Assembly: GCA_001724265.1 (NCBI GenBank)
Contig: MEDY01000007.1
Location: 124,001-162,195 of the forward strand
DNA length: 38,195 nt
Origin: Rhizaria sp. SCN 62-66
Taxonomy: Eukaryota
Direction of reading: 5' to 3'
The notes beneath the pieces are model-generated. The model was given only the letters and a program-made list of their open reading frames with translations. It was not told where the DNA came from and searched no databases. Position 1 is the stretch's first letter. Each line of letters starts with the position of its first letter. Position numbers and translations under genes: made by a program. This document shows, one piece after another, positions 2-22,434 of the stretch.

Positions 2-481
2 CGCAACCTGCAGCTGCTGCTGGAGCGCAAGGACGGCAACTACGCCTTCCGTCTCCAGAAGGACCGCGTCTACTACATGTCCGAGGCCGTGCTCAAGATT
101 GCCGTCGGCGTGCCCCGTGACAATCTGGTCTCTGCTGGCACGTGCTTCGGCAAGTTCACCCACTCCGGCCGCTTCCGCCTCAACATCACCGCGCTCGACT
201 ACATCGCGCAGTTCGCCAAGTACAAGATGTGGATCAAGCCCTCCGGTGAGATGAACTACCTCTACGGCAACAACGTTCTTAAGGCCCACCTGGGCCGCAT
301 CACCGAGAACACCCCCACGCACCAGGGCGTGGTCTTCTACACCATGGCCGACATCCCCGTCGGCTTCGGCGTCTCCGCGCAGAGCACGCTCGACTGCCGC
401 AAGGTCGAGGCCACCGCCATCGTCGGCTTCCACCAGACCGACATCGGCGAGTATCTCCGTATCGAAGAGAACCTCACCTAA
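2..481 (+). CDS. NIP7: 60S ribosome biogenesis protein NIP7, 5'-partial (frame open to window edge)
   Basis: Frame 2 reads [28 protein letters not shown]...[21 protein letters not shown]...[29 protein letters not shown]...[16 protein letters not shown], matching NIP7/PUA-domain motifs. Ends TAA at the family's usual C-terminus. Confidence 0.96.
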
Positions 482-5214: not shown

Positions 5215-7515
5215 TCAGAGCTTAACGTGCCTGTTGCCCCCCTGCGCACCGGCACCGGCGCCGGCGCCCGCACCAGCGCCACCGCCGCGGGGCTTGTTGT
5301 TGTTGCTGTTGCCGCCGTTGCCAGCGTAAGGCGCCGACGTCTGCGCGCGCCCCTGCTGCTGCTGCTGCTTACCACCACCGCCGCCGCCGCCGCTGCGCTG
5401 CTGCTGCTGTTGTCCGTGGCCGCCGCGCGCGCCCGGGCCCTGAAATCCGCCGCGGCCGCCCCTGCCGTTGTTGTTATTGTTGCCGCCGTTGTTGTTGCCG
5501 CGGTAGGACGCGTGTCCCATGCGTCCGTCCCTGCCCACAGTCACCCCCGCGGCGCCGCCGGCACCTCCGAGAGCGCCGGAGGCGGCGCGCAGGGCGGGGG
5601 TCGTGGCGCTGCCGCCGGCGCCGGCGTTAGCGGTGGCCATGGCCGTGGCCTGCTGAACGGGGTCCAGCGCGGCGACGCGGTCGCGGCTGAGACACACGCT
5701 GAGGCGCGCGTCGTTGCCTGCGGTGAGGAGAGGGCAGTCCGCGGAGGCGGAGGGCAGCCAGTCGACGGCGCGGACGAGCCCGCGGTGAGCGGTCGAGGGC
5801 GGGACCACCCACAGGGGGTGCACGCCCGAGGGGGAGAGGTTGCTCACACAGAGGGCGCCGCCCGAAGACGCTGTTGTCGGTATAAGATGAAACAAAACAA
5901 AGAAACATGCGATAAAGATTGTTTGATGAGTGAAGATCTGTGACGATTAACATGAATTCGTCATATTTAATTCATATTTAATTCCGTGAATGTGCTGTCA
6001 ATATCAATTTGCGACGTACACATGACGACGCGCAGCACCTCGGCCTCCGCGTCGTATTGGCAGTCGACCACGACGGTCATGCGGTACTCGCAGGGCGCGA
6101 TGGAGCGGTTCTGCGCGTCGACGAGCACGAGCCCAAGCCCGCCGTCGGCGGCGCCGGTTGAGACCACGGACACGGAGCTGGGCAGCGTGAGCGCCGCGGC
6201 CGACGAGTAGAAGGTCATGCCCTGGCCGCCGAGCGTGCCGGCGTCGTGCTAGCAGCAGGACGCCGCGACGACAACGCCGGCGGCGCCGGACGCGGAGAGC
6301 GTGTGCGCGTCGGCGGCCGCGGGGGAAGAGGAGGCGAGCAGCGAGTTGAGCTGCTCGGCGTCGGCCTCGGCGCCGGAGGGGAGCAGAGACGCGTGAACCG
6401 GGACGGGGTCGAAAGTCATGCCAGCATCGGAAGCTAAGCCGCTGTCGCTGGCGTCAGTGTCGGCGTCAACGAACTCGCGGTAGCTAAGATTGTGGGTGAG
6501 TGCAACAAAGTAACAGAAAATGAGAATATATTAATGTGAGCAATTTGAGCGAGTGACTGAGAGACGTGACAAAGATACAGCCTCAAAGCATAGATGTTAT
6601 AAAATAGAATATCAGTATAAATACGTACAATTCGTCGTTGTCGAACTTCGCGGTGGCACAAATGACGGCGTTGACGTCGTCCCTGATGGTGTTGAACTGG
6701 CTCACCAGCTCGCACTCGTCGATGTTCCACAGCGTCACAGTCGAGGCCGGGGAAATGGCGTACAAAAACCCGTTATCGGGACCGAAAAAGCCCATCTTGG
6801 CGACGGGCTGCTCAGTCGGGAGCGTGTTGTCGAGGCAATCGTCGAGCGAATCACCGTTGACCATCTGCTCTAAGTCGAAGCAGTTGATGAAGGTGTCCTC
6901 CGACCCCGTGAGCAGGTACCCGGGGCGCGCGGGGTGGAAGCGCACCTGCGTGACCTCGTCCGTGTGCACGTCGGTGCACTGCCCGACGGGGGCACGCGGG
7001 TAACGCGTGTCGAACACGGCCACGGAGGGCTTGCCGCCGACCGCGAGCGCTGTGCCCAGCAGGTCGGCCGAGAAGAGCGGTTCGAAGGCCGGCAGACGCG
7101 CCGTGAGCTGCGGGGCGGCCTCGCGCGTGCGCACATCCCACACGGCCGCCACGCCGTCGGCCGAGGCCGAGATGAGGAGGTTGTTGCCGTTGGGCGCGGG
7201 GTCGGGGTTGCCGCCATTGCTCCACACGAGGTCGTGGACTTGGTCGCCGTGCCCGCGCAGATCGCGGTCGAACGACAGCGAGTCCGTCGCGGCGTTAAAC
7301 ACGTACAGCTTGATCAGGTTGTCGGGCGTGGAGGACGTTGCGACGAGGCGGGAGGCCTGCGAGGCGGCGAGCGCGGCGGCGTAGGACGGGACGCCCGCGG
7401 TCACGGCCTCGGTCAGGGCGAGGGAGCACACGTTGGTGAGGTAGTTGTTGTTGAAGGAGGTCGTGATAGCCATCTTGGGCGCAAACGCGCCGAGAATGGC
7501 GGCGGAGCTGCTCAT
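5215..7515 (-). CDS. WD40-repeat protein (WDR89-like), about 668 aa with one in-frame TAG; exons 7515-6629, 6483-6020, 5870-5215
   Basis: WD repeats GHGDQVHDL...SASADGVAAVWDVR, DVHTDEVTQVRFHP...LLTGSEDTFINCFD and AHRGLVRAVDW...LTAGNDARL. Introns 6628-6484 and 6019-5871 (both GTACGT...AG) are phase-consistent. Exon 2 has TAG at 6251-6249. Ends TGA. Confidence 0.82.
6249..6251 (-). other. In-frame TAG within exon 2 of the WD40 gene
   Basis: Reads tcc tgc tgc TAG cac gac gcc (SCC*HDA). Frame is open and GC3-rich on both sides. Confidence 0.8.
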
Positions 7516-8044
7516 GGACACAGACAGCAGACGCTTAAGTGCAGGGATGAAAGCACTGTGGAGTGGGGAAGGGAAGGTGGGGACTGCTGCGAGCCAGAGT
7601 GTTCGTGCGATGGACGCAAAGATGGAATATATGATGTGAGACACATTTCTAAGAGCAAATAATAACAAATTCAATATTTCACAACATATACTTCCTATGA
7701 CTTTGGTAACAGACTGTTTGACGATCATATTATGGCTCGCTGAAGGCTTGAAAATCGCATTGCGCGGTCGCGCAGCGTCTCAGCTGCCACCACCAAAAAG
7801 AAAAACGACAACTGCATCAGCACCTACTACAATCTCCTCAGTGCGCGATACAACGGCACAAATCGATTGTTTCAAGTGGATTAATCGGATATAATATAGA
7901 CAATAAAGCGATCTTTATGAATTCGTGTTTATTATTGCATTCCTGACACATATAGGCCTTCATTGGCCCTCTCAAAGCCGCGAGTGACTGCTGGGAATCA
8001 GTCGTTCAGAACTCGTCTTACAAGCTTTCTGCGTCCCATTGCGC

Positions 8045-8617
8045 TCAGTCAGTCTCGTGGAAGGCGGCAGCAAGGGGCACAAACTCCCGCATCGCCTTGT
8101 GCACGTACGCCGTGTCGTGTGGGTCCTTGTCCTTGCCCCACGTGTATAGCTCAGTGAAGACGCCGTCAACGTGTGCATTCACGACGCTGGCGCTCTCCTT
8201 GCCCTCCTCCGCGCCCGCAGACGCGCCCGCCAGCCCGCGGCCAGGCAGCCCCGCGGCAGCGGGCGCGCCCTGCTCAAGCACGACGCCGATTGTGTCCTGG
8301 GGCAGCGCGAGCTTGAGTCCCGTGAGCCCGCGGCCGCGCAGCGCAGCCTTGTAGATGGTCTTGTCGTCGGCGTAAGTGACTGTGGACACGTACTCGGGCG
8401 CGTCAGTGGAGATGGAGCGCTCGCGGACAACGTGCGGGGCGGGGCGGAAGAAGGCGGAGACGTTGGCGGGGCCGTCGTGCGAGATGGCGGCGGGGATCAG
8501 GTGCACTGGTGACTTGCGGAGGCGGCGGAGCTCTTTGGCAGACGACGGGAGAGGGAACGCCACGGGCTGCGAGAGCGCGGAGAGCGCAACATCATCGGTC
8601 AAGTCAGAGCTACTCAT
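8045..8617 (-). CDS. RNASEH2C: Ribonuclease H2 subunit C, 190 aa, intronless
   Basis: Motifs VHLIPAAISHDGPANVSAFF, AALRGRGLTG, LPQDTIGVVL, FTELYTWGKD and EFVPLAAAFH. Ends TGA. Confidence 0.9.
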   Translation of the reverse strand: MSSSDLTDDVALSALSQPVAFPLPSSAKELRRLRKSPVHLIPAAISHDGPANVSAFFRPAPHVVRERSISTDAPEYVSTVTYADDKTIYKAALRGRGLTGLKLALPQDTIGVVLEQGAPAAAGLPGRGLAGASAGAEEGKESASVVNAHVDGVFTELYTWGKDKDPHDTAYVHKAMREFVPLAAAFHETD

Positions 8618-8859
8618 TGCGGAGAAGCACTGAAGGTGGGTGGCAAAAGAAAACAAAGCACGTTAAAAGCGCATGGAAGGAATGGGAGGAAGTGAACAGG
8701 CGAAGTGAGAGATTGGGCGCGAAGCGATGAGCACTTGTGTGATACGAAAGAATTACATCGTCAATAGCCGCATAATTTTGTTCATAATCATAAAACACAA
8801 AATCTCGTTTTTATCTATTATAGTACTCACACAGGTCGCGCTCTTACGGCACAAAAGCC

Positions 8860-11800
8860 ATGTATCGTCTCGGCGCCCGGACTCTCTGGACCTCACGGTC
8901 CCTGGCGGCCGCAGCCACGGCCCCACCGGCACCCACTCGCGCCCACCCTGCCATCCCCGCGAGCCTGACGCTTTCCATCACGCCGCCTGTGACGGCTGTG
9001 ACTGTGCCGCGTCGTGTGGATGCGCTGGCGCGTCGGTACGGGCGGCAGCGCCGACCCAAGGTGGTCGTGCTATCGGGCGGCACCGGCGTCGGCAAAACGG
9101 CTCTTTCACTTCTGCTCGCCGCATCGCTGCCCGGCGGCGGCGAGGTTGTCTCCGCAGACTCGATGCAGGTCTACCAGGGACTCGACATCGGCACCGCCAA
9201 GGCGTCGCGGGACGAGCTGGCCGCGCTGCCGCATCACTTGATCGACATCGTTGCGCCGGGCGGCGACGACTACTCTGCTGCACGCTTCCACCGTGACGCG
9301 ATGACCGCGATTAAGGTTCGTCATAGCTCATTATCTCTACATGTATTTTTGCTGTCTTGATATGTTGGTTCATATTCTGAGTTGTATTGATCTATCCATG
9401 TTGTATCTTGCTCAGCATCTACGTTTGCTGACTCTGTGACGTCATGTAGGACATCATTGCGCGCGGCAAGACCCCGATCATCGTCGGCGGCACCGGCCTC
9501 TATCTGCAGTGGCTGCTGTTTGGTCTGCCGCGGTCCATGGCAGGACCCGGCACGCGCGCCGAGGACCGCGCCGCCACTGACGCCGCCGTCAACTCACTGC
9601 TGCAGCTGCTGCCTGAGATGGAGTCGGCCACGGGCAAGCTGCGGAAGCAGCGCAGCGCGCTCACGGTTATTTCGCACGATAACAGCATCAACAATAACAA
9701 TAATAACAATGCACCGGCCGCTTCTACTCAGCAACAGCAACAATCCGCCACGGCAACGCCTCATAGTGAGACTGTGACTGAAACTGCAGCTGAAACCGTG
9801 ACTGAGACTGCGCCAGCGTCTGCGACTGAGACTGAGGCACAGCAGAGCGGTGATGACCTCTCGCGCTGGCACGCGGCCCTCGCCTCTACGGGCTGGTCCC
9901 CCGCCGTTCTCGCCTGGATCGACTCGCTCCGCATCCGCAACGACCGCTACCGACTCACAAAGGCGTTGTAGCACTGCGTGCGCACTGGCGGCGCGTTCGT
10001 TCCCGACGCGTTCCGCGCGCAGACCACGCAGCGCGGGGCGGGCGTCAGCGCGCTGCGGCGTGGGGAAGGCCCGCTCGACGCTGTCGAGTGGAGCCCCGAG
10101 GCGCTTACATCGGCGAAGGGGGAAGCGGGCGCGAGCGGGGATGCGGATGTGCGGCGCTGGGTCAGTGGGCAAGGCATTGTGAGTACTGGGGTGACCGTGA
10201 CTAAGATGCTCCGTCCGAAGCAAAGTCAGTTTGTGCAACAGCAAAACAAGTCAAATGCTCGCAACGCCTCCGCTGCACGCACAGTTGACGACTGGCTTGA
10301 TGCCGGCCTGCCCTTGCGTTCCCACGCTAGCGCGGACACTGTCGCGCACGTGAACACGAACAGTCCCGTCAGCAACGCGCTCGCTGCTGATGATAACGAT
10401 GGCGACGATGACGCCGCGGGCCTCGTGCACTTCGCTGACCCGCGCCTGTTCTACCTGCGCCTCCCGCGGCCGCTGCACTCGCGCATCGTCGACCTGCGCT
10501 GCGAGGCCATGCTCACCGCGGGCCTCCTGCAGGAGACTCTCCTGCACTCGAGTCCCACCGCGCCGGGCACCGCGGGGGGCGCGCTCCCGGCCGGGTCGGC
10601 GCGCGCCAAGTCGATCGGCTACGCGCAGGCGCTGGGGTTCTTCGAGAGCAAGGTCGCCCTGGACGCCCTCGCGGGGCTAAGTAGTCCTGATGTAAGTACC
10701 TCGTCGCCCAGTGTAAGCAATAGCTCGAGTGACGCCTCTGATATGAGTGAGCCGGGTGCCAAGCTCATGGGGGCTGAAGGAAGCAATGATTTTAGGCTCA
10801 CGAACGCTGTCTGGGCTGGACTCTATGTCTCACCTCGATCGCAAACTCCGTCTCTAGAGACCGACTTGGGCAACACCTCACCGTCGCAGTTGCAGTCACT
10901 GCAGTACCGTCCCCCTGCCCCCGCACCCGTGCTCCAGCTCTTTGGCCGCTTTCTGGGCGAGTTCCAGCGCGGCACGCGCGCGCTGGCCCGCAAGCAGGCG
11001 GCGTGGGTGCGCGCGAGTCACGTGTTCTACGAGCTCGACGTGCCCGTCTCGGCCGCGGGGTTCCTGGAGGCCGTCGGCGAGTACGACGCGCGGGAGGAGC
11101 GCGCGGCGCAGGACCGCAAAGATCGCGAGAAAAAGAGCAGCAAAAAGAAGAACGGCAACAAAACAGCAAGTGATGATGCCAACGATATCGCTGCAACTGT
11201 TGCCACTCTGAACAGCTGTTCTGTTTCCGCGAGCAGCGCTGCCTACAACGCCGCTGTCGCCGCTGTCGCCGCCGGCTGCAGCGGCCTCCCGTCGATCTGT
11301 CCGCTCTCCCCGTGCGCGTGCGCCGCGACCCCCGCCCGGCGCCGCGCGGCCCGCGCCGCCGCGCTGGCCGAGGCGGCGTTGTGCCCTCCGTCGCACGTGC
11401 CGCTAGACGTGCTGGCGCTGTCGCACCCGGACTTCGCGGCGGAGCACAAGGCGGCGCTGCGGCGCGCGGCCGGGGAGGTGGCCGACAGCGTGGCGATGCG
11501 GCAGGGCGCGTGGTGGGACAGCGTGATGCCCGCCAAGGCGAGGCTCGAGGGCAGGGAGTGGGGGGCCGAGTGGGGCCACGACTCAATCAACAGCGACACT
11601 AACAACTCGACCATGAACAGTAGCGAACAGAACGGTAGCAACGAGGAGAGTGAGTCGAGCCTCCCTGTGAGTGCGGTAGCAGCGAACTCCGCTCCCAAAC
11701 GTGCAAAGAAGAGCGCGCTTGACCAGGAAATGAAGACGTACATCCCGATCCCGCTTGTGTACACGGAGAAAGACGTTATCATCGGTCTCCGTGGTGCGCA

Positions 11801-12209
11801 GTTGCCGTTCAAGACGCAGGCTAAGGTGGCCGCGACGCCAGCGACAGCTCCTGTGTTTGCCGCAGCGGCAGCGGCGCTGACAGCGAACGATGAGAGCATC
11901 GCTGATCTTGCTCGTGATCCTTCTGCGAATGTTGACAGTAGCTTTACCGACGCGGCCGTGACAACGGACAACGACGCTGTTTCGGCTGCCACGAACAATT
12001 ACGCAACTAGCACTGCTGTCAGCCGTGGCGCCTCTATCGCCGACCATATGTCTGCCTCAGAGACACTGTCGGGCGAGGCTAGCCAGTTGATGCGTGAGGT
12101 CAAGGTTTTGTGGACCACTCTCAACGCTAAAGCGAAAGCCAAGGTTACTACTAACAACGCTAACAACAACAGCAACGTTAGCAATGAAGTCAGCAAGCCA
12201 CTAATGTAA
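8860..12209 (+). CDS. miaA: tRNA dimethylallyltransferase (MiaA/plant IPT9-type), about 1071 aa with one in-frame TAG; exons 8860-9315 and 9450-12209
   Basis: P-loop [41 protein letters not shown] and [10 protein letters not shown]. After the TAG come [19 protein letters not shown] and [11 protein letters not shown]. Intron 9316-9449 (GTTCGT...TAG). Ends TAA. Additional in-frame introns in the low-complexity inserts cannot be excluded. Confidence 0.9.
9969..9971 (+). other. In-frame TAG in the conserved NDxxRxxRALE motif of the tRNA dimethylallyltransferase
   Basis: Reads aag gcg ttg TAG cac tgc gtg cgc act ggc. ORFs 9537-9971 and 9978-12209 are in the same frame. Confidence 0.9.
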
Positions 12210-12952
12210 CACAAAGATACTTTAGATTTAATAACTCGTTATTTAGACACCTTATTTATTAATATTCGTCGAGAAAGGCATATACAGTCTGGAAAATTGC
12301 TGAAACAAAAGAAGATTGTGTGTATTATTGTTCACGAGTGCGTGTTGCAGATGAAACAAGACACTTGCACTCACTTTCAGTTCCACAAACACGTATAGCT
12401 TCAAAACAAACAAAAATGAAGTGATATGCGAAAGCACAGTGCAATCACACGCACACGTTGTGCGTTATTGCTGCTGTCACAGTCGCATTCACTCTTGTTG
12501 TCGCGCGCGCGACTCAGGTGAAGACCACGAAATGTACATGTTGAGACAAAGAGACAGGAACTAAAGAGAGATGTGCACAATAGTAAAGATTAAAATGTAA
12601 AGACAAGTTGCGAAAAGCTGAGAGATGATAAGTGAGCAAAAGAATAAGGAACAAAACTGACGAATATAAGATTAATACACTGGTAGCTGAGGTAATATTA
12701 AGAAACAAACATGCCTACGTACATGCTGCATAGTACAACACCGTCTTTCATACAAAACGTCGGTAAATAAACACTAGAGATAAAGGTATAGCAACGAACA
12801 AATCCAATACTATTTTGAAAAAATATGATGTTTGGCAGTTAAAAACTCGTATGATGATAAACCGTTAACAGAAACAAACGACAGTTTCGTAACACAGGAA
12901 ATCACAAAATGACGGTCTCACTGCGTTTATCATGCGCACTCAGTCACTCCAA

Positions 12953-15900
12953 TCACTCGCCGCGAGTGACCTTGGCGTCGTATGCGGAGTAGGGGTCCAT
13001 GGGCGCAACCTCAGCGCCGCCAAGCCTCCACTTGGGGTTGAAGCGTTTGTAGGCCTGGATGGTGAGCACAGCCGCGACCACCGTAATCATGGCCAGCAGC
13101 ATCCCCATGCACACGGCGAGCGACACCGCGGGGGCGAGTTTGTCGCACGCCGCCGTGCGCGCCTGGATCCACAGCGGCTGCGTCAGCGCGCAGTCGAGCT
13201 GTCCGCCCACGGCCGCGAGCGCTCTCTCCGCGCTGGCTTCGGTCGCAGTGATGCCCTTGAGCTGCGCCGCGAAGGCCGCCGTGGGCGTGAGCGTGGGGAC
13301 CGAGGACAGCGCGGTGACGATGGCGCTGGCGTTGATGCCCTGCGCCTGCAGCAGCGCGGCAGGCGCGAGAAGAGCGTCCACCACGGCGGGCGCGGCGCCG
13401 TCGCACTCGAGCAGGTACGATATCGCAGCCGGCACGTCGACGTCGCTCGTGAGACCCAGGAACGGGAAGTCGGCGGCCTTGAACGTGACGTCGCCCAGCG
13501 CGGTCTGGATGTGCGTCACAGGCACGTCGCAGTGGTCCGCGGCCACGGCGGCAAGGGGCAGCTCGACCGCGGAGAGCGCAAAGAGGAGGATGGCGCACGC
13601 GACGAGCGAGTGGCCGGCCAACATCGTGAGGCGCGGCCACTCGAGGAAGTACGACATCGCGGCGATAAAGGCGAGGATAAAGGGCATGAGCACGAGCACG
13701 TTCATGAAAAGCAGGCGCGTGCCGTCCCACTGGTCCGCGTCGTCCTTGATGTCCTCGCGCGTGTCAGTGTAGCTCGCGTACGTCTTCTCCACCGAGTCGC
13801 GGCGTGGGGCGACAGACCGCAACAGCCCGGCCGACAGGGCCTGGCGCCGCGCCAGCAGCGCGTGAGGCACCGCGGCCGCCAGGTCGAGGTACGCGGCCAG
13901 CTGCACGCGCGTCACCGTCGCCAGCGGCGCGCCCTTGACGGCGCTCGCGCTCGCGCTGGCGGCGGCGGCGTCGCGGATGTCCGTGAGCCGCGCGGCGCGG
14001 TCGGCCGCGGACTCGGCCTCGAGCGCGGCCGCGTCGGCGGGCGCGTCGGTGACGGGCGTCGAAGTGGCCAGCGAGGCCGGGTCCGCGTCTGCCTGCGCCA
14101 GCGCGTAGTCGTTGCTGTCGGCGAGCACGGCGAAGGCCTTAAGCCCCGGGGACGAGGCCGCCCCGAAGACCGGGGCCGCCGCGGCCTCCAAGTCGGTCAG
14201 CGCGGTGCCCAGCGGAGCCGCGTCGGAGAACGCGTACATGTCCACGCAGTCCGGAAACGGCGTCGTGTCGGACGCAGAGCTGGACGCGGTGGCGCCGAGC
14301 AGGCCCGTGTCGAGCACAGCCACGGCAGCGGCCTCGGCCGCGGACGCAGCGGTGGCGAACGCGGTCAGCTTGGCGCCCGCGGCCACGCCCGCCGCGGCGA
14401 CGGCCTCGAGCGCAGCAGTACTTGCACTCGCGCCGGAAGACGTCGAGGAGTACGGCAGCGTGACGGGGGACGGGTATGAGGCCTGAACGGATGTCTTGGC
14501 GCTGTCGATGGCGGTGACGGTGGCGTTGGCCTGCGAGACCGCGGTGGCGAGTCCCGCGGCGACGGCCTCGAGCGCAGTGGCCGAGGGCACTGTGAGCAGA
14601 CCGACGGGATACGATAGCTGCGACACCGCCGTCGTGATGGCGGTCACGACCGAGGCGGCAAAGCCACCCGAGGACACGAACACGGCGTCCGCCAGCGCCA
14701 GCGCGGTCTGCGTCGACGACACGGCCACGGCGAGCGCCGGCGCGCGCTCGTAGACGGAGCTGTAGGGCGCGGCGATGCCGTTGGCGTAATCGGTGATGCC
14801 CGCGAACGCGGCCGCCAGCGCATTCTCGGCCGCCGTGGCCGCCGTGGTCGCCGTGGCGAGGTCAGCCTGCAGCGAGGCCGCGAGCAGAAACAGCTGCGAT
14901 GACGCGCCCAGCGTCGAGCTGACGCTGACCGTGCTGTTGGGGCTCGTGTCGACGAGCTGTGTGATGGCGAGCGCGATCGTGAGCGCCTGCGACGCGGCGT
15001 CCTCGGCCGCGGTCAGCGCGGTCTCCGCCGCGGACAGCGTCGCAAAGCCGGCGGCGTCGAGCGCGGCGAGCTCGGCGGTCGCCGCGGCAGCCGCGTCGCT
15101 GGCGTCCGCGGCGGCGGGCGACGGCAGCGGCAGCACCGTGGACACGGCGCTGGCGAGCGCCACGGCCTCCGTCCCGGCGGCGTCGGCCGTGGCCTGGAGC
15201 GAAGAGATGCCGGACGCCGCGGCGACGCGCGCGGCGTAGTCGCCGCCGGTCAGCGCCGACGCGGCGGGCGCGGGCAGCGCGGCGGCGAGCGTGTGCAGCG
15301 AGGCCGCGGCAGGGTAAGCGGCGGGGAAGCACGCCGCGTCGGACAGTGCGGCTGCGGCGGCGAGAATGTCGTTCTCGATCGTGTCTGCGTCGGGCGCGGG
15401 GGTGCCAGTGAGGTAGTCCGACGCGGTGGCGATGCGGGCGAGCGACGCCGAGAGCATGGCCAGCTGTGAGCGCGTGGCCGTGGCGGTCGACGTGACGGAC
15501 GCGAGCAGCATGCGCAGAGCTGCCACGGCGGAGCGCGCGGCAGAGGCGGCGGACGCGGCAGCCGCGTAGTCGGGCGCAGCGGTCGTCGCGGCCGAGATGG
15601 CGGCGGTCAGCGCGGCGGAGGCGGCGACGGTGACGGCCTTGAAGGCGCGAAGCTGGGCGCCGAAGAAGGTCGTCGTAACAGTCTCTTTGACGGGGTCCGT
15701 AGCGGTGCCTGCGCCGAGCCCGTCGCTGCCGGTGAGCCCAGTGTTGACGTCGCGCGCGACGGGGCGCACCGTGGCCTCGAGCAGGTCCAAGTATCCCGCC
15801 GGGTCGGTATAGTTGTTCGCCGCCACGGCCGCCGCGGACGCCGCGACTCTCGTGCCGCGGGCGGCCGGGAGCAGCGCGAGGTGGGCGAGAATCAGCGGGG

Positions 15901-17857
15901 TAACTGTGCGCAGGTAGTCGAGGTCCTGGTCCGCGGCGGCCTTGTTGATCTCGTCGCTGTACTGCTGCAGCGCCGCGACCGACAGCACGCCCGTGCTCAC
16001 GCTCGAGCTCGACGAAGAGCTCTCTGTGAACGACGCCAAGATGGTGTTGGTCGCGCGCAGCGCCGCGTCCGCCGTCACGGCCCCGCGGGCGACTGCGGCG
16101 GCGTGGGCCGTCACGGTCGCGCCCTTCCCCGAGGCCGCGGAGGAGCTGTTGAGGGCCAGTGGGACGGACTCGACCGCGGTGAGACTGGAGCCGCTGGCCG
16201 ATGAGACGGCAGTGGCGGTCACATACACAGCGCCGGCGCCGAGCGCGTTGTAGTAGTTGGCGGCCTCCCAGACCACTGCCACGTCGGCGGCCGTCGTCGC
16301 CGAGGTCGGGACGGTCTCGAGCGCGGCGCCCGCAGCGGAGACCGCGCTCGCCGCGGCCGCCAGCGCGGGTAGCGCCGTGTCGCGCGTGGCGTGCGCGAGG
16401 GCGAGCGCCTCAGCGGCGCGCGGAGCGTGGCCGAAGCTGCGCGCCGTGCCGCCGCTCTCGACGTCCTGCGTGTCAGTCAGCACTGCGAGCGCGGCCGCGG
16501 CCGTCGCGGCGGACGGTGACAGCACGGCGGTCGCGGCGAGCGGGTGTGCCACGGCCTCCAACTGCTGCAGCGCGGGCGTGGCCGTCTGCAGACAGCTCCC
16601 CCAGTCGGCGATCACGGCCGCCGCGGCGGTGACAGCGGCGGCGGCGACGGCGTCGTCGTCGGCCGGGTCGGGCGCCGTCGCGTTGGACGTGGGCGCGGCG
16701 GGCAGCGCGGAGACCGCGGTGGCGAGCGAGTCCGCTAGCGTCGTCGCGCGGTCCCCGGTCTCGGCCAGCGTCGTGAGCAGCGGCGAGAAGGCGCGGTAGT
16801 AGCTCATGACCGAGTCGGAGCTGTCATACACGTCGTCGATGGCGCGCGAGAGGTCGACGTTGGCGGTCCACGCGAAGGCGCAGATGGTGCACATGCCACC
16901 CGCCAGCACCAGCAGCGTAATCGTATAGCCGCGGGCGGCGCAGAGCGAATGGTAGCGCGTGGCGTGGTTCTTGCCGCCCGTGCCGCAGGCGCGCATGACG
17001 CAGAAGACAAACCAGAAGATGCAGAGGGCGCCCGCGACCACGAGGTTGACGAGCCACATGGTGCCCAGCGAGCCGAAGTACGGGTCGCGCATCAGGCCCG
17101 AGAAGGTCCACGTAACCTCAGAGAGCGGGCGCGAGATGTGGTGGCGGCTCAAAGTGACCTCCGTCGTGTTCGTCGTGTCGGTGTCAGCGGTGTCGGAGTC
17201 CGCGGTTGTGCCGGTGCTGTCCGAGTCCGACGATGGGGATTCCGACGAGGTGGGTAGCACGGGGGAGCGCGCGAGCGAGCGGACCAGCTTGACGGCGCCG
17301 CTGCCGGGAGCGGAGATGTCGCTGACCCAGCGGGACGTGAGCGCAGCCGAGTCGCGCAGGTCGAGCGGGGAGAAGGCGACGCTGGCGGCGGCCGCGGACT
17401 GGGGATGAGGCGCCTGCGAGCTGCTGGAGCGAGAGCGCATGAGCAGGAAAGAGCTCTCAGCGGTAGCGTTTACCTCAGCGTCATCGTCAGGGTGGTATGC
17501 GGGGGAGTGCAGCGCTGTCGTGGTGAACAGAGATGACTTGTTGAAGTTCGCCGCTGCAGTTAAAAGAGGAGGCGGGGGGCGGACAGTCGCAGTCGCTGTG
17601 GCGGCGACTGCGGTCACAAACGCGGTGCCGGGAACGCAAAACGCGCTGCCGGGGACAGAAGGGTCCGCGGAGATGCAGTGGCGAGCGACAGCGGCGGAGG
17701 CAGAGGCAGCGGAAGAGGCGGCGGCGGAGGCAGCAGCAGTCTCGAGGAAGAGAGGGCTGTGCGCAGAGGCAGCGACTGCAAGTACGAACAACACAGACAA
17801 ACCGAGAAGCAGACCAGCGGCAATAAACCGCGGTCGTGGGGACATGCACGAAGGCAT
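12953..17857 (-). CDS. Large signal-peptide plus five-TM protein with prominin/tweety-like topology, about 1634 aa, intronless
   Basis: Signal-like FIAAGLLLGLSVLFVLAVAASA; TM1 followed by a Cys-containing loop (FCVMRAC); TM2 ending AWTAN; very long Ala-rich loop; TM3/TM4 followed by ADHC; LDC...ACD before TM5. First ATG at 17857. Ends TGA. Confidence 0.72.
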   Translation of the reverse strand: MPSCMSPRPRFIAAGLLLGLSVLFVLAVAASAHSPLFLETAAASAAASSAASASAAVARHCISADPSVPGSAFCVPGTAFVTAVAATATATVRPPPPLLTAAANFNKSSLFTTTALHSPAYHPDDDAEVNATAESSFLLMRSRSSSSQAPHPQSAAAASVAFSPLDLRDSAALTSRWVSDISAPGSGAVKLVRSLARSPVLPTSSESPSSDSDSTGTTADSDTADTDTTNTTEVTLSRHHISRPLSEVTWTFSGLMRDPYFGSLGTMWLVNLVVAGALCIFWFVFCVMRACGTGGKNHATRYHSLCAARGYTITLLVLAGGMCTICAFAWTANVDLSRAIDDVYDSSDSVMSYYRAFSPLLTTLAETGDRATTLADSLATAVSALPAAPTSNATAPDPADDDAVAAAAVTAAAAVIADWGSCLQTATPALQQLEAVAHPLAATAVLSPSAATAAAALAVLTDTQDVESGGTARSFGHAPRAAEALALAHATRDTALPALAAAASAVSAAGAALETVPTSATTAADVAVVWEAANYYNALGAGAVYVTATAVSSASGSSLTAVESVPLALNSSSAASGKGATVTAHAAAVARGAVTADAALRATNTILASFTESSSSSSSVSTGVLSVAALQQYSDEINKAAADQDLDYLRTVTPLILAHLALLPAARGTRVAASAAAVAANNYTDPAGYLDLLEATVRPVARDVNTGLTGSDGLGAGTATDPVKETVTTTFFGAQLRAFKAVTVAASAALTAAISAATTAAPDYAAAASAASAARSAVAALRMLLASVTSTATATRSQLAMLSASLARIATASDYLTGTPAPDADTIENDILAAAAALSDAACFPAAYPAAASLHTLAAALPAPAASALTGGDYAARVAAASGISSLQATADAAGTEAVALASAVSTVLPLPSPAAADASDAAAAATAELAALDAAGFATLSAAETALTAAEDAASQALTIALAITQLVDTSPNSTVSVSSTLGASSQLFLLAASLQADLATATTAATAAENALAAAFAGITDYANGIAAPYSSVYERAPALAVAVSSTQTALALADAVFVSSGGFAASVVTAITTAVSQLSYPVGLLTVPSATALEAVAAGLATAVSQANATVTAIDSAKTSVQASYPSPVTLPYSSTSSGASASTAALEAVAAAGVAAGAKLTAFATAASAAEAAAVAVLDTGLLGATASSSASDTTPFPDCVDMYAFSDAAPLGTALTDLEAAAAPVFGAASSPGLKAFAVLADSNDYALAQADADPASLATSTPVTDAPADAAALEAESAADRAARLTDIRDAAAASASASAVKGAPLATVTRVQLAAYLDLAAAVPHALLARRQALSAGLLRSVAPRRDSVEKTYASYTDTREDIKDDADQWDGTRLLFMNVLVLMPFILAFIAAMSYFLEWPRLTMLAGHSLVACAILLFALSAVELPLAAVAADHCDVPVTHIQTALGDVTFKAADFPFLGLTSDVDVPAAISYLLECDGAAPAVVDALLAPAALLQAQGINASAIVTALSSVPTLTPTAAFAAQLKGITATEASAERALAAVGGQLDCALTQPLWIQARTAACDKLAPAVSLAVCMGMLLAMITVVAAVLTIQAYKRFNPKWRLGGAEVAPMDPYSAYDAKVTRGE

Positions 17858-18679
17858 GCGAAGGATACAGGAGGGCAAGCCGACCCTGACTGAGGATGTG
17901 GGAGAGAGAAGGAGAACCAACAAAGATGGGTTTGTGCAAAGTTCTTTGAGTTTCGACTGCTGTGGAAGGACAATGAGAAGTCAAAAGAGTGTGATTAGAA
18001 TTTTGTAAATCAAAATAGTGTGACTCGTATAATTTCACCACGTTGCATCATATTCACAGGATATAGAGCGTAATAAAACCATTTTGAAGAAGAACAATGC
18101 ATGTTGAATGTGTGCGGGGGATGCGCCCAACGAATGGTAGCTTGCGCGCTAATAATATCCTTTCGGGCAAAATCGTCGTGATATAGTGTAAATCGTTACG
18201 GTTATATTCTGATATTTCATCAACATCCGATTTCCCCGACTCAAGCACCTTAAATTTCATGCAGGAAAAGGGGCCCTCCTCTCTCTCCATCGACCGATCG
18301 TTTTCGGCCAGTCTGTCAGCATGCAAACTAGACTTGTGGTGATAACGAAAAGAGCTTCGATATGCGGTATAACAAAGGCATACCGTTATTAACCTCAAGA
18401 TTCAGCGCGCTTTAAGTACTTTTTATTTAAAATCGTGAATTATTACTGTCAGATCAAGATCTTTTCAAGATTGTGTATCACCATGAACCCTCAAAATTTA
18501 GTTTGGGACGCAAGCTTAGATTATTTCTTCAAGTGGCCTACTGCTCCCGAGTGCCCTCCACACCATTGAGAGCAAATTATCGTCATAGAATGATGCAATT
18601 CAGCCACGTTGCCAGGAGCTCAAAGCTGCGTGCTGTCGTCGGACTTGCTGTCACGACGAAGAATGAACGGTGACGACAA

Positions 18680-19440
18680 TCATAGTCTTACGAATCTTGT
18701 GTGGTTACTCCACCAGCAGTCCCATAGGGGTCGCAGAGATGCAGCGTGTTGACATCCCAGAGCAGACGTCAAAAGTCGTCTGAGCCCACAGTTATGCCAC
18801 GCGTCTGACCTGTCGGGAGGAGCGCAAGAGCAATCTTTGACCTGCCCCAGCAACAGAGCAAAGTCACGTCCTTCTCCTTCGCAGCGAGCAGTGTGAGCAC
18901 TCGCGCTTTCGAGCTGCAAGCTCGCCACTTTAGCCTCGGCCAGCGCACACGCGATTTCAGCCTTGCTGCACGAGATGTCTCAGCTACAGCCAGCTTCGCC
19001 GCTGCCCCGTCTTAACCGCTGGAGAAAGCAGCCCTCACAGCAGCCTCAGCCGGGGCCAGTTGCAAAAGCTCGACACTTATCCCTGCGCACTTAAGCTCCG
19101 CCGTTGCCAGATTGAGCGCAGTGTTGGCCAAGGTAAACTCGGCTTCTGGAACGAGACTGGGGAGCCCACGCTTCGCTGCGAAGAGTTGCGCCGAGCCCTT
19201 GATAGCCAGCTGGGTCGAGGCAAAGCCGACGGCGTCCGTAAGGGTTGCCAGCAGATTGTTATGCGACTCTGAGTTGCTGGGAACATGTTGTGGTTAAATG
19301 AACGCAACGGTGGTGGCCGGAGCTGAACCTAAAGATGAAGTGTCCTCGGCGGAGGCACTGTGAAGCTCACCATTAAGGGGACGCTTGCGCGAGCTTTTTG
19401 TCGTGCTTGGACACTTACAATCCTGTGACATAGTATTCAT
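18680..19440 (-). pseudogene. Probable decayed protein-coding gene of unknown family
   Basis: One frame from ATG 19440/19431 reads protein-like (KSSRKRPL...NNLLATLTDAVGFASTQLAIK...ANTALNLATAELK) but has TAA at 19296-19294 and 19014-19012, then an apparent frameshift near 18965 into KAEIACALAEAKVASLQLE. GC is intermediate. Confidence 0.4.
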
Positions 19441-20013
19441 CAGTCTGTTGAATTTTAAAATCAAGATATTTTGCGGAAATAGGAGCTCATGAGCTCTAGG
19501 AAGGGAAGAACACGAGTTGGTACACGTGCACTGAAGAGGCCTTCGCGGAACAAGTTGTCACAACACGCGCAGGAACAATGCAAGACAAAAAGTAATCACT
19601 TAATATACAGCATGTATAATGAAATTAAATAATCTTACTTGCTCGTCGTTCAAGGACATCTATACAAGTTGAGCAACATATCTCTTCGCGGTCAATGGTC
19701 TCTAGTTCTGGGTGACCGTAAGACGATGGTCGTGTCAACTTGCTAATTCAAGAGGATGTATCTCATCACAAAATCCGTCAGGAAAGATACCAACCAACTC
19801 TCTGTGATATATCTTGCTTTTTGTGTCTGTCTTGTCAATTAAACATCTAACACTCATAACTCACCTCTCTACGACTCACTTTTGTTTCCATTCCTCACTC
19901 TCATCACTGTTCCCTGATCAGTCGTTACCTCGGCCCCCAACAGCGCGACACGAAGGCGCCCAACGCTGTGCTGTCAACGCTGAGGCTTGGCGCGAGTCCT
20001 TCCACTCTTAACG

Positions 20014-22434
20014 ATGTCTGTCATCGCCTCAGGCTTTGACGGCGTCGAAGTCATCGGTCCGTTCCGCTTCCCTTCATTCACGAACAAATCTCTTCCTGGT
20101 ACCTTCTCATATGAGTAAAACTCACTGCTTTTGTCTGCATTGTGTATCTGCGTTATTGTCACAGACATTAATCTTGAAAAGCTGCTCGCCTGGTTGGCGG
20201 AACGCTCCCTCATTGCCCCCAACGCGACGGAGCTCGTCAAGGCTCTGCACAACCACATCCGCTCGCTACTCGCCTCCGTGCCGCAGGAAACTAAGCCGGA
20301 CATCGCGCCGCTGCTCTTTCCGCACGCGCCCGCACTTGTTGCCGCTATACTGGCGTCCGACTCTCCGGCCACGCTTGCCAACGCCACAAACCCGGCATCC
20401 TCATTCATCGCATCCGTCTGTTCGTCAACATCGTCATCGTCGTCGACGGCGTCGCTGTCGTCGTCGGTCGCGTCCGAGGCCGCAGCACACAGCATCTCCT
20501 ATCCGGCCTGCCTCGCGATCACCGCCGCGCTTGAGCGCCACACGACCGTGCGTCTGCGCCGCCGCGCGCGCACCCTGCTGGGGTATCCCGCGACGCCGCT
20601 GTTGCGCTCCTGGACCGCAGTGGCGACCGCGTACGAGACCAAGAACCTCTTCCTGGCTGAGGCCGCGCGCGCGCTCTCCGCGCTGGCGCTCACCGCGCTC
20701 CCGGCCGGCCAGCGCGCCGTTGCGGCGGCCCGCAAAGCCGCCGCGGAGCGTGACGCGCGCGCTCTGACGCTCGCGGCGGGGGCGGCGCGCGCGGGGCGGG
20801 CCTTCGACGCCGACGCGGCCGCGGCGGGGCTCGAGGCAGAGGCGGTGGCCAGCGTGGCGCAGGCGGCCGCGCACGAGGCCGGTAAGATTACCGCAAAGGC
20901 AGACGCGGCTGTTGCTGCAGCCACAGCTGCACTAGCAGCAGCTAACGCAAACGCAAAGAACAGTGCCATAGCCAATTCGACCGCGAATGCGGCGACGTTA
21001 GCTGCGGCTGCGAGCAAGGCTGCCGACGCCGCGGACGACGCGGCCGCGGCCGTCGCCGCGCTGGCCCGGGCCCCGCCGTCTGCGCTGCCCGCCGTGGTCG
21101 AGGCTGCGCTGGCGCGCTCCAGCGGGGGCCGCACGCACGCGCTGCTGCTCGAGGTGGCCGCGCAGACGCGCACGGCGGGCGTCGCCGCGGCCGCGCTCTA
21201 CTACGGCGAGTGGGCGCGCCGCTGCGACGGCGCGGCGGCGACTGCCGGCGACTGCGAGCAGAAGCAGTGCGTGCGCGACTGTGGGCAGGACGCTACTGCG
21301 GAGGGTGACTGTGAGCGCGGAGCGATAGCGAGGCTGCGGCACGTGCTGCCGGCCCTGGCTGCGGTGCTCACGCAGAGCATTGGCGAGACTGTCACAGACA
21401 CGGCGCCCTCTGCGAACAACGCAAAGTCTGCAAGTGCGGCTGTAACCAGTGGCCGTGAGCAGCGGCAGACTGACGGCGGCGACTGTGGTGATATTGACTG
21501 GGGCGAGATTGGGTTTGATGTCGAAGCAGACTCGACAGTCGCCGCTGAGAGTGACAATAATAATGCGAACATGAAGAATAACACAAACAGTGCTGGCGCT
21601 GGAGAGATTGACTGGAACTTTAGCGTGATCGAAGAAAACGACTCTTACTCGAATGACTCAAAACTTGCGGACTCTAGTTCGACTCTTGTTTCTTCTTCTG
21701 CGTCAGCTGAGAACAAAGATAAGCCTCGGCGACTTAACTTATGGCTCGCCGAGTCCCGCCACGCGCTCGCCGCGGACCTCACTGAGCTCGAGTCCTTCTA
21801 CACGATGCGCCTGAGCGAGATCCAGAGCAACGAGAAGGCGACGGCTGCGGGCATGGCGTTGAGTGGCGTCATTGCCGCGTTCCTGCCCGTTGCGACAATC
21901 AACGTTGCTGCGCTGCTCGATGAGTGCACCGGAGCGAACGACAACGCAACTAAGGCTAACGGTGACAGCAGCGATAAGACCGCTGCGTCCCCGTTATCCT
22001 GGCTCCGGTCCGACGCCGCTGCGGCGACCGCTGCCACCGCGCCCGGCGTCATCCTTCTCACCGACACCTCGCGGATGCAGTCCTGGTTGTCCCAGTCCGT
22101 GGCTCCCCCTCTGCGTGCACTGACCCAGGGCTCTGGCCCGCTGCAGCAGCACCTGCTGCTCACCGTCTCGGCCCGCGCGCGCGCAGCGGCCGCGGCGCGA
22201 CTGGCGCAGGCCGCGCTGCAGGGCCCCGCGCTGGCGGCGCGCGCTGCGGCCGCGGCGGCGCGGGCTGCCGCGGCGCGCGCGGAGGCCGCGAAAGAGACCG
22301 CAGAGGGGGAGGGCGTGCGGCGGCGCGCGAAATAGCTTAAGACGAGTCTGGAGGACGCGCTGGGGAGGATTATCAAGAAGAAAGTCAAGCTGTTTGTCGC
22401 TGCAGAGTCGACAGCGGCGACCGGCGACGAGTGA
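20014..22434 (+). CDS. CDK5RAP3: CDK5RAP3/C53 (UFMylation adaptor, ER-phagy receptor), about 770 aa with one in-frame TAG; exons 20014-20056 and 20165-22434
   Basis: N-terminal IDINLEKLLAWLAER (intron 20057-20164, GTCCGT...CAG, phase 1), YETKNLFLAEAARAL, IDWG/IDWN motifs, RHALAADLTELESFYTMRLSE, LQQHLLL, and C-terminal AK*LKTSLEDALGRIIKKKVKLF. Ends TGA at 22432-22434. Confidence 0.88.
22333..22335 (+). other. In-frame TAG in the C-terminal helix of CDK5RAP3
   Basis: Reads gcg aaa TAG ctt aag acg agt ctg gag. The 32 codons after it resemble the family's conserved terminus (TKELQKLIEADISKRYSGRPVNLMG-like). Confidence 0.78.

What the first reader, a model, noticed from the sequence alone, without database searches (positions are those of the whole stretch)
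5215..22434. Candidate non-standard nuclear genetic code: UAG read as sense (Glu or Gln) while UAA and UGA remain stops
Seen in sequence: three unrelated, otherwise intact genes each carry one in-frame TAG (6251-6249, 9969-9971, 22333-22335), with no frameshifts or in-frame TAA/TGA. All 12 gene models end in TGA (8) or TAA (4), none in TAG. Established knowledge: UAG-only reassignments are rare (Leu in the rhizarian exLh, Gln in the fornicate Iotanema, Leu/Gln in some phyllopharyngean ciliates). The UAG=Glu cases I know also reassign UAA (Blastocrithidia, peritrich ciliates, ciliate PL0344). Inference: two TAGs sit at typically Glu columns, so UAG=Glu with UAA still a stop is possible, which I do not know to be described; Gln fits too. 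Usage is very low, 3 in roughly 8,800 codons by my count, as expected for a recent codon capture or a disfavoured codon in a GC-rich genome. Standard annotation would split or truncate these genes.
Basis: partly seen in the sequence, partly recalled or inferred. Interest (0 to 1): 0.93.

Follow-up and report, generated by a model that had tools for sequence, protein, structure and literature searches.

The report
Stop codon TAG read as sense
An uncultured wastewater eukaryote seems to translate the stop codon TAG as an amino acid, probably glutamate, while still ending its genes with TGA and TAA, a version of the genetic code that I could not find described.

Summary
The window is nuclear DNA of an unidentified eukaryote from wastewater or bioreactor metagenomes, with GC-rich exons and AT-rich GT..AG introns. 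My 12 spliced gene models hold 8,740 codons. Their only internal stops are three TAGs (6251-6249 minus strand, 9969-9971, 22333-22335). All 12 genes end in TGA (8) or TAA (4), none in TAG.

The TAGs are not assembly errors: contigs from two other studies cover them without a difference. Homology continues in frame after each TAG:
- WD40 gene: E=2e-22 to the closest relative.
- tRNA isopentenyltransferase: MiaA motifs follow the TAG.
- CDK5RAP3: tail E=1e-6.

In the transferase, 5 of 6 strain SNPs after the TAG lie at third codon positions.

Residues at the TAG columns are Glu in 36 of 37 MiaA, Glu in the closest WD40 relative, and Ser in the only CDK5RAP3 relative. Best reading: UAG is a rare sense codon, probably Glu, with UAA and UGA still stops.

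No tRNA, eRF1, RNA or genome-wide data could be reached. All three TAGs precede C, so leaky, context-dependent reading is not excluded. UAG-only reassignment is known for Leu, Gln and Ser. I found none for Glu.

The parts
6249..6251 (-). In-frame TAG no. 1, in exon 2 of the WD40-repeat gene; context TGC TAG CAC
   Evidence: Aligned with Glu of the closest relative P0007. Run X3 contig 9 covers it with 0 differences.
9969..9971 (+). In-frame TAG no. 2, in exon 2 of the tRNA isopentenyltransferase (IPPT/MiaA-type) gene; context TTG TAG CAC
   Evidence: Aligned with Glu of the R-x-x-R-A-L-E motif in PDB 3crm. That column is Glu in 36 of 37 bacterial MiaA. Run X4 contig 18 covers it with 0 differences.
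22333..22335 (+). In-frame TAG no. 3, codon 738 of 770 of the CDK5RAP3 gene, 32 codons before the TGA; context AAA TAG CTT
   Evidence: Aligned with Ser of relative P0015. The tail after it matches the C-terminus of P0015 (E=1e-6). Run X4 contig 24 covers it with 0 differences.
5215..7515 (-). WD40-repeat gene: exons 7515-6629, 6483-6020 and 5870-5218; stop TGA at 5217-5215; 668 codons
   Evidence: Pfam WD40 and beta-propeller families. Splice sites, frame, start. The part after the TAG matches P0007 at E=2e-22.
8860..12209 (+). tRNA isopentenyltransferase gene: exons 8860-9315 and 9450-12206; stop TAA at 12207-12209; large low-complexity inserts
   Evidence: Pfam IPPT before the TAG and after it (profile 152-220, E=0.0017). 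A MiaA profile matches exon 1 (1.3e-31) and exon 2 before and after the TAG.
20014..22434 (+). CDK5RAP3 gene: exon 1 20014-20056, intron 20057-20164, exon 2 20165-22431; stop TGA at 22432-22434
   Evidence: Pfam CDK5RAP3, 2.4e-27. Model. G+C is 0.57 between the TAG and the TGA and 0.26 after the TGA.
479..481 (+). TAA stop of NIP7 (gene runs off the window start)
   Evidence: The Pfam PUA domain ends at residue 153 of 159. G+C goes from 0.63 to 0.39. The extension has GC3 of 0.47.
921..923 (-). TGA stop of the Orn/DAP/Arg decarboxylase-like gene (2637-921, one intron 2067-1911)
4751..4753 (+). TGA stop of unnamed gene 3 (3146-4753, intron 4076-4306)
8045..8047 (-). TGA stop of the RNase H2 subunit C gene (8617-8045)
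   Evidence: Pfam RNase_H2_suC matched to profile position 132 of 133.
12953..12955 (-). TGA stop of a 1,634-codon Ala-rich membrane protein gene (17857-12953) with no TAG in frame
22950..22952 (-). TAA stop of the C2-domain gene (28085-22950, intron 23969-23838)
   Evidence: Pfam C2.
31191..31193 (+). TGA stop of a coiled-coil protein gene (29232-31193)
34707..34709 (+). TGA stop of the MAP kinase gene (32722-34709, intron 33397-33593)
   Evidence: Pfam Pkinase.
36890..36892 (+). TAA stop of gene 12 (35624-36892, intron 36359-36514). It has a GH16-like E-I-D-I-V-E motif across the splice junction; that label is recalled, and Pfam gave no hit.

Best explanation
In this eukaryote UAG is translated as an amino acid, while UGA and UAA end translation. 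What is shown: three otherwise intact, conserved genes need their in-frame TAG read through to make the conserved downstream parts. The TAGs are fixed in every assembly I could see. No gene here ends in TAG. What is inferred: the amino acid is most likely glutamate. It would be delivered by a tRNA-Glu with anticodon CUA, one base change from the CUC isoacceptor that reads GAG, the dominant Glu codon. A CUA anticodon pairs with UAG but not with UAA, which would explain why UAA remains a stop. The release factor eRF1 would have lost or weakened UAG recognition. The codon is very rare (3 of 8,740 codons, under 1% of putative Glu codons) and is seen only before C. This fits a young or still incomplete reassignment in which decoding may compete with termination.
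For: 1) The TAGs are real and fixed. Contigs from two other studies cover all three with 0 differences. Proteins predicted from other assemblies break at the same places: P0005 ends at TAG3 (4 contigs) and P0014 starts just after TAG2 (another strain). No longer, TAG-free allele appeared in three searches of 5.8 billion proteins.
2) Each gene continues after its TAG. The post-TAG1 part matches P0007 at E=2e-22. After TAG2 the frame stays open for 745 codons and carries MiaA profile positions 194-225 and 265-284 and Pfam IPPT positions 152-220 (E=0.0017). The 32-residue tail after TAG3 matches the extreme C-terminus of P0015 (12 of 24 identical, E=1e-6).
3) Coding composition runs across the TAGs. 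GC3 before and after is 0.94/0.97, 0.88/0.88 and 0.85/0.73. After most real stops G+C drops, to 0.26-0.55 over the 12.
4) There is purifying selection after TAG2. Of 6 SNPs in strain X4, 5 are at codon position 3 and 4 are synonymous. There is also an in-frame 3-base insertion.
5) 0 of 12 genes end in TAG (8 TGA, 4 TAA). As a rough baseline, 3 of 13 MAPK relatives from other eukaryotes appear to end at TAG.
6) Amino acid. The TAG2 column is Glu in 36 of 37 MiaA and in PDB 3crm. The TAG1 column is Glu in the closest relative.
7) No unusual RNA structure follows the TAGs (z = -0.12, +0.28, -0.66).
Against: - There are only three codons and 12 gene ends. With 0 of 12, the 95% upper bound for TAG-terminated genes is still about 22% (my calculation).
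- Usage is 0.034% of codons. That is far below established cases such as the rhizarian exLh, with 384 in-frame UAG in 71 genes (PMC5304391, passage).
- The TAG3 column is Ser, not Glu, in the only relative found.
- TAG3 is 32 codons from the end, so a recent tolerated truncation is conceivable for that gene alone.
- All three TAGs are followed by C. C starts 23.8% of codons, so 3 of 3 has p of about 0.013, a post hoc test. This could mean context-dependent leakiness rather than a clean reassignment.
- No tRNA or Rfam family lies in the window.
- eRF1, transcripts across the TAGs and peptides were out of reach.
- The organism is unidentified.
Confidence: 0.6

Rival explanations
1. UAG is still formally a stop codon but terminates poorly in this organism. 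The three sites are leaky, context-dependent readthrough sites (UAG followed by C) decoded by near-cognate tRNAs, with no dedicated tRNA and no true reassignment.
For: All 3 TAGs are followed by C, which starts 23.8% of codons. In-frame TAG is extremely rare, 3 of 8,740 codons. C after a stop codon is known, from my recall of the readthrough literature, as the weakest termination context.
Against: Three of 12 genes would depend on readthrough for most of their protein. About 80% of the IPPT and about half of the WD40 protein lie after the TAG. No gene ends in TAG. The two informative columns are Glu, whereas near-cognate reading of UAG is expected to give Gln, Tyr or Lys (recalled). No structure follows the TAGs, and the downstream triplets CAC, CAC and CTT do not fit the CAR-YYA readthrough motif (recalled).
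Confidence: 0.2
2. UAG is a sense codon but encodes Gln or Ser rather than Glu, as in the UAG-only codes already known.
For: The TAG3 column is Ser in P0015. UAG-only reassignments to Gln and to Ser exist (PMC11687900, passages). Gln is chemically close to Glu, and CAG to TAG is a single transition.
Against: TAG2 sits on a column that is Glu in 36 of 37 MiaA. TAG1 is Glu in a relative that is 61% identical over the WD40 part. The TAG3 column lies in a coiled-coil stretch where the flanking residues also differ.
Confidence: 0.2
3. The transcripts are edited at these sites, for example UAG to UGG by A-to-I editing as in some filamentous fungi or UAG to CAG by U-to-C editing, so the ribosome never meets a UAG.
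For: No RNA contig that I could see covers any of the three TAGs, so the mRNA sequence is unknown. Only TAG, never TAA or TGA, interrupts the frames.
Against: Homologous columns are Glu, Glu and Ser, not Trp or Gln. Editing would not explain why no gene ends in TAG.
Confidence: 0.05
4. The three genes carry nonsense mutations (pseudogenes or null alleles), and the downstream sequence has simply not decayed yet.
For: TAG is one mutation away from the commonest codons here (GAG 382, CAG 247, TCG 242, AAG 228, TAC 165). Random nonsense mutations in this genome would therefore mostly create TAG. TAG3 removes only 32 residues.
Against: The TAGs are the same in all assemblies seen, in runs dated 2015 to 2025, and no intact allele was found. 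There is a third-position bias of SNPs and an in-frame indel after TAG2. GC3 is 0.88-0.97 after TAG1 and TAG2 in a genome whose non-coding DNA is AT-rich. There are no frameshifts and no TAA or TGA in 8,740 codons. Three of 12 neighbouring single-copy housekeeping-type genes are affected.
Confidence: 0.04
5. The TAGs are assembly or sequencing errors.
For: None found.
Against: Contigs of runs from two other studies (X3, X4) cover the three TAGs with 0 differences.
Confidence: 0.01

Closest known systems
UAG-only reassignment in the rhizarian exLh (Leu) and the fornicate Iotanema spirale (Gln), Panek et al. 2017, PMC5304391 (passages read)
   Same: A nuclear code in which UAG is sense while UAA is kept as a stop. 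It was detected as in-frame UAG in conserved genes. A tRNA with a CUA anticodon is the predicted decoder.
   Different: The amino acids there are Leu and Gln; here it is probably Glu. Usage there is high (384 UAG in 71 genes for exLh), against 3 in 12 genes here. The genome here is GC-rich and comes from wastewater.
UAG-only reassignments in phyllopharyngean ciliates (Leu in three TARA MAGs; Gln in Hartmannula and Trochilia). The same paper lists Protocruzia (Gln) and the green alga Scotinosphaera (Ser). McGowan et al. 2024, PMC11687900 (abstract and passages)
   Same: UAG is sense, UAA is retained as a stop, and the cases were found by mining metagenome or genome data.
   Different: None of the listed cases is Glu. 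The present contig has long AT-rich spliceosomal introns and GC-rich exons, uses TGA as its main stop, and gave no sign of being a ciliate. Its lineage is unknown.
UAG = Glu in codes that also reassign UAA: peritrich ciliates (UAR=Glu), Blastocrithidia (UAR=Glu, UGA=Trp; PMC12153298, abstract) and the ciliate of McGowan et al. 2023 (UAA=Lys, UAG=Glu; PMC10553269, search listing only; also a passage in PMC11687900)
   Same: UAG is probably read as glutamate, presumably by a tRNA-Glu with a changed anticodon.
   Different: Here UAA terminates 4 of 12 genes and never occurs in frame. UGA terminates 8 of 12. The genome is GC-rich, whereas Blastocrithidia's change is linked to AT-richness.
Programmed or leaky stop-codon readthrough (TMV-type UAG CAR YYA, recalled)
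   Same: UAG followed by C at all three sites.
   Different: No motif match and no downstream structure. The sites lie in the middle of essential domains, not before optional C-terminal extensions (TAG3 excepted). TAG is absent as a terminator.

Membership tests
UAG-only stop-to-sense reassignment (UAA and UGA kept as stops) | In-frame UAG inside conserved genes, with homology continuing in the same frame | tested here: met
   Met in 3 of 3 sites: E=2e-22; MiaA and IPPT profile hits after the TAG; E=1e-6.
UAG-only stop-to-sense reassignment (UAA and UGA kept as stops) | UAG not used at genuine gene ends | tested here: met
   0 of 12 gene ends are TAG. The sample is small; the 95% upper bound is about 22%.
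UAG-only stop-to-sense reassignment (UAA and UGA kept as stops) | UAA and UGA function as terminators | tested here: met
   8 TGA and 4 TAA ends, most with a G+C drop after them. Extensions past the TAA stops have GC3 of 0.38-0.47. The NIP7 and RNase H2C domains end at their stops. There are 0 in-frame TAA or TGA in 8,740 codons.
UAG-only stop-to-sense reassignment (UAA and UGA kept as stops) | One consistent amino acid at UAG columns | tested here: inconclusive
   Glu in 36 of 37 MiaA, Glu in the closest relative, Ser in the only relative. There are only three sites.
UAG-only stop-to-sense reassignment (UAA and UGA kept as stops) | Cognate tRNA with anticodon CUA | not testable with these tools
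   No tRNA in the window. No genome is held. No other contig of the organism was found.
UAG-only stop-to-sense reassignment (UAA and UGA kept as stops) | eRF1 N-domain changes that weaken UAG recognition | not testable with these tools
   The eRF1 gene is not in the window, and no genome is held.
UAR = Glu codes (peritrich type, NCBI table 30; Blastocrithidia type, table 31; table numbers recalled) | UAA also read as Glu | tested here: not met
   0 in-frame TAA. 4 of 12 genes end at TAA with non-coding composition beyond. Given GAA:GAG of 36:382, only about 0.3 in-frame TAA would be expected, so the gene ends carry this test.
Programmed stop-codon readthrough | Stimulatory downstream context or RNA structure | tested here: inconclusive
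   C follows the TAG at 3 of 3 sites (post hoc p of about 0.013). Folding energies equal those of shuffles, and the downstream triplets differ.
Stop-loss A-to-I mRNA editing (UAG to UGG) of filamentous fungi (recalled) | Trp at the homologous columns | tested here: not met
   The columns are Glu, Glu and Ser.

The most novel reading that the evidence does not exclude
This is a nuclear genetic code in which UAG alone has been captured for glutamate while UAA and UGA remain terminators. It would be caught at an early stage: UAG is under 1% of Glu codons, occurs only in the weakest termination context (before C), and sits in a GC-rich genome, where AT pressure cannot be the driver. If so, it would be the first UAG-only = Glu code. 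It would also be a rare snapshot of a stop-codon capture in progress, in an organism that recurs in wastewater reactors.
Probability: 0.35. Interest if true: 0.9.

Novelty: new variant of a known kind. Interest (0 to 1): 0.78.

Why it matters
Nuclear code changes that separate UAG from UAA are few. Per PMC11687900 they are to Leu, Gln and Ser. A Glu version would add a new code table.

Standard annotation would truncate or split about a quarter of the genes on this contig. The public protein predictions P0005 and P0014 already show that.

The very low codon usage and the uniform C after each TAG would make this organism a natural test of how a stop codon is captured. It could tell codon disappearance apart from an ambiguous intermediate, and it does so in a GC-rich genome. 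That is the opposite of the AT-driven Blastocrithidia case.

The organism turns up in reactor and wastewater samples of several studies, in runs dated 2015 to 2025. Material for genome, tRNA, eRF1 and proteome work should therefore be obtainable.

Tried and rejected
- Whole genome: none is held for the window.
- Other contigs of the organism: the metagenome scan with the MAPK found no identical locus. Its best hits, L001 and L002, are 80% identical in the MAPK and share no other window gene. L001's MAPK seems to end at an ordinary TAG. Genome and viral collections gave no relative of the C2 protein.
- RNA evidence: the polyA metatranscriptome contigs of X5 that were listed do not cover any TAG, and no intron joint was listed. 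So neither transcription across the TAGs, splicing nor editing could be judged.
- Wider homologues: word-based searches for CDK5RAP3 and IPPT returned only the organism's own truncated predictions. The full HMMER search gave one relative, P0015.
- PDB comparisons: searches with whole proteins found nothing. The CDK5RAP3 C-terminus and a 46-residue IPPT piece found nothing useful. A two-sequence profile touched human CDK5RAP3 only weakly (E=2.6), and not at the TAG column.
- Taxonomy: the Atlas look-ups gave only generic eukaryote clusters. The top NIP7 cluster is mostly Euglenozoa, which I do not treat as placement. Cluster members carried no organism names.
- Earlier findings of the scan: nothing on this genome or on look-alikes. 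The two hits by words concern a bacterium and a phage.
- Tiny introns hiding the TAGs: rejected. The flanks are GC-rich coding sequence that aligns with homologues without a gap at the TAG.
- Pyrrolysine: rejected because the columns are Glu, Glu and Ser.
- The 'GH16' label for gene 12 is not backed by Pfam.
- The 2-kb stretch 18000-20000 showed no convincing gene that might end in TAG.
- Supplementary files of the papers were not opened. They may hold codon tables that bear on how low UAG usage can be in established reassignments.

Full report
WHAT THE WINDOW IS. The 38,195-base window has no N. It alternates GC-rich blocks with AT-rich stretches. The GC-rich blocks are exons with GC3 of 0.86. 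The AT-rich stretches inside genes are 9 spliceosomal introns of 108-231 bases with GT..AG ends. Their donors are GTGCGT, GTATGT, GTACGT (twice), GTTCGT, GTCCGT and GTACGC (three times). No whole genome is held. The stretch occurs in bioreactor, wastewater and activated-sludge runs of several studies, dated 2015 to 2025, so the source is an uncultured eukaryote of such systems. I could not name its lineage.

GENE CONTENT. I modelled 12 genes:
- NIP7, Orn/DAP/Arg-decarboxylase-like, a WD40-repeat protein, RNase H2 subunit C and a coiled-coil protein.
- tRNA isopentenyltransferase (IPPT) and CDK5RAP3.
- A C2-domain protein and a MAP kinase.
- Three genes without Pfam hits: unnamed gene 3, a 1,634-codon Ala-rich membrane protein, and gene 12.

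CHECK OF THE OBSERVATION. After splicing, every model is a multiple of three in length. The only internal stops are these three TAGs: TAG 3, TAA 0, TGA 0 in 8,740 codons. The other TAGs in the long open frames are intron acceptors or lie upstream of the start. The 12 genes end in TGA (8) and TAA (4), never TAG. G+C drops after most of these stops; it does not drop after the gene-12 TAA and drops only slightly after the RNase H2C TGA. At the three TAGs, GC3 stays at 0.94/0.97, 0.88/0.88 and 0.85/0.73 before and after. Reading on past the four TAA stops gives GC3 of 0.38-0.47. The NIP7 PUA domain and the RNase H2C domain end just before their stops.

NOT AN ARTEFACT, NOT A SEGREGATING ALLELE. 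Contigs of runs from two other studies cover the TAGs without a single difference. These are X3 record 9 (5000-7580), X4 record 18 (8499-10065) and X4 record 24 (22284-23023). No variant is listed at any TAG position, although X4 is a slightly different strain with SNPs elsewhere. Proteins predicted by others from further assemblies break at the same places. P0005 (4 contigs) ends at TAG3. P0014 (ENA, one residue different from the window) starts three codons after TAG2. No longer, TAG-free version turned up in three searches of the 5.8-billion-protein collection.

THE TAGS MUST BE READ THROUGH.
- TAG1 (WD40 gene). The closest relative, P0007, is 61% identical over the WD40 part. It aligns across the TAG at E=9e-33. 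The 93 residues after the TAG alone match at E=2e-22. A third exon follows.
- TAG2 (IPPT). The frame stays open for 745 codons after the TAG. A profile of 37 of the 38 bacterial MiaA fetched (one was dropped for length) matches exon 1 at 1.3e-31. It matches exon 2 before the TAG, and after it at profile positions 194-225 and 265-284, the A-K-R-Q-x-x-W stretch. Pfam IPPT matches positions 152-220 after the TAG at E=0.0017, which is below its gathering score but collinear. In strain X4, 5 of 6 SNPs downstream of the TAG are at codon position 3 and 4 are synonymous. A 3-base insertion keeps the frame. Under neutrality, 5 or more of 6 at one codon position has p of about 0.018 (my calculation).
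- TAG3 (CDK5RAP3). Only 32 codons follow, so an open frame alone proves nothing. However, these residues match the extreme C-terminus of the one relative found, P0015: 12 of 24 identical, E=1e-6 for the tail alone. G+C is 0.57 between the TAG and the TGA and 0.26 after the TGA.

WHICH AMINO ACID. TAG2 falls on the last residue of the R-x-x-R-A-L-E motif. That column is Glu in 36 of 37 MiaA and in PDB 3crm. TAG1 aligns with Glu in P0007, in an otherwise variable loop. TAG3 aligns with Ser in P0015, in a coiled-coil stretch where the neighbours also differ. Glu is therefore the best guess, and the evidence is thin. Gln, and given Scotinosphaera also Ser, cannot be excluded. GAG is the main Glu codon (382, against 36 GAA) and is one change from TAG.

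MECHANISM (INFERRED). A tRNA with anticodon CUA reads UAG but not UAA (argument in PMC5304391, passage). A tRNA-Glu(CUC) would need one anticodon change to become such a tRNA. The release factor would have to spare UAG. None of this could be tested: there is no tRNA or Rfam family in the window and no further contig of the organism.

AN ODDITY. All three TAGs are followed by C (TAG CAC, TAG CAC, TAG CTT). C starts 23.8% of codons, so the post hoc p is about 0.013. The 12 real stops are followed by G seven times and by C once. This suggests that UAG decoding may still compete with termination, which would mark a young or ambiguous reassignment, or plain leakiness. No stable structure follows the TAGs.

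RIVALS.
- Leaky readthrough without reassignment is the serious one. It is discussed under Rival explanations.
- Editing cannot be excluded without RNA, but the columns are not Trp or Gln.
- Pseudogenes or null alleles are contradicted by fixation, by third-position SNPs, by coding composition, and by the absence of any frameshift or other stop.
- Assembly error is excluded.

COMPARISON WITH WHAT IS KNOWN. UAG-only nuclear reassignments are reported for Leu (rhizarian exLh and three phyllopharyngean MAGs). They are reported for Gln (Iotanema, Hartmannula, Trochilia, Protocruzia) and for Ser (Scotinosphaera). These come from PMC5304391 (passages) and PMC11687900 (abstract and passages). UAG = Glu is reported only where UAA is reassigned too: peritrichs, Blastocrithidia, and the ciliate with UAA=Lys and UAG=Glu. 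The sources are PMC11687900 (passages), PMC12153298 (abstract) and PMC10553269 (search listing only). Four full-text searches gave no report of UAG alone read as Glu, nor of such a code in a wastewater protist. A fifth search only traced the Scotinosphaera citation. The library does not hold most subscription journals, and supplements were closed.

VERDICT. The reading 'UAG is sense, UAA and UGA are stops' is supported for this locus at about 0.6, and Glu is the most likely meaning. It is a new variant of a known kind of code change and worth a targeted genome, tRNA, eRF1 and proteome follow-up.

Noticed in passing
window 5871-6019, 6484-6628, 9316-9449, 20057-20164, 23838-23969, 33397-33593, 36359-36514, 1911-2067, 4076-4306: All 9 introns have donors of the form GT-N-C/T-G-Y (GTACGT, GTACGC, GTGCGT, GTTCGT, GTCCGT, GTATGT). 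They are AT-rich (low-G+C stretches overlapping them have G+C of about 0.33-0.43) and sit inside exons with GC3 of 0.86. Five of the 9 acceptors are TAG. This composition contrast could help bin the organism's contigs.
   Followed up: partly
window 6249-6251, 9969-9971, 22333-22335 and the next base: Each in-frame TAG is followed by C, while the 12 real stops are followed by G (7), A (2), T (2) and C (1).
   Followed up: partly
window 18000-20010: This is a 2-kb stretch between two divergently transcribed genes with no convincing gene. A moderately GC-rich core (about 18680-19300) has roughly 100-codon open frames on both strands. Strain X4 carries 16 SNPs and a 5-base insertion between 17995 and 19859.
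   Followed up: partly
window 9450-12206, 12956-17857, 20165-22431: There are very large low-complexity inserts (Ala-rich, Asn runs, Thr/Glu repeats) inside conserved proteins. The IPPT is about 1,070 codons, against about 310 in bacteria.
   Followed up: no
P0007 (relative of the WD40 gene): The relative's predicted protein reads through an intron at what appears to be the same position as window intron 6484-6628. It is also Ala-rich, so a related GC-rich species with conserved intron positions exists in a JGI metagenome (33.6-kb contig).
   Followed up: no
L001 (20,681 bases of a 317,756-base metagenome contig): It carries an orthologue of the window's MAP kinase (80% identical, with the same long N-terminal extension). 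It has 52% G+C, no intron at the window's intron position, no shared neighbours, and an apparent ordinary TAG stop.
   Followed up: partly
window 5290-5420: A GCC/GCT-type triplet repeat in the last WD40 exon attracts hundreds of unrelated metagenome contigs. It produced spurious joints and depth peaks in the read layout.
   Followed up: no
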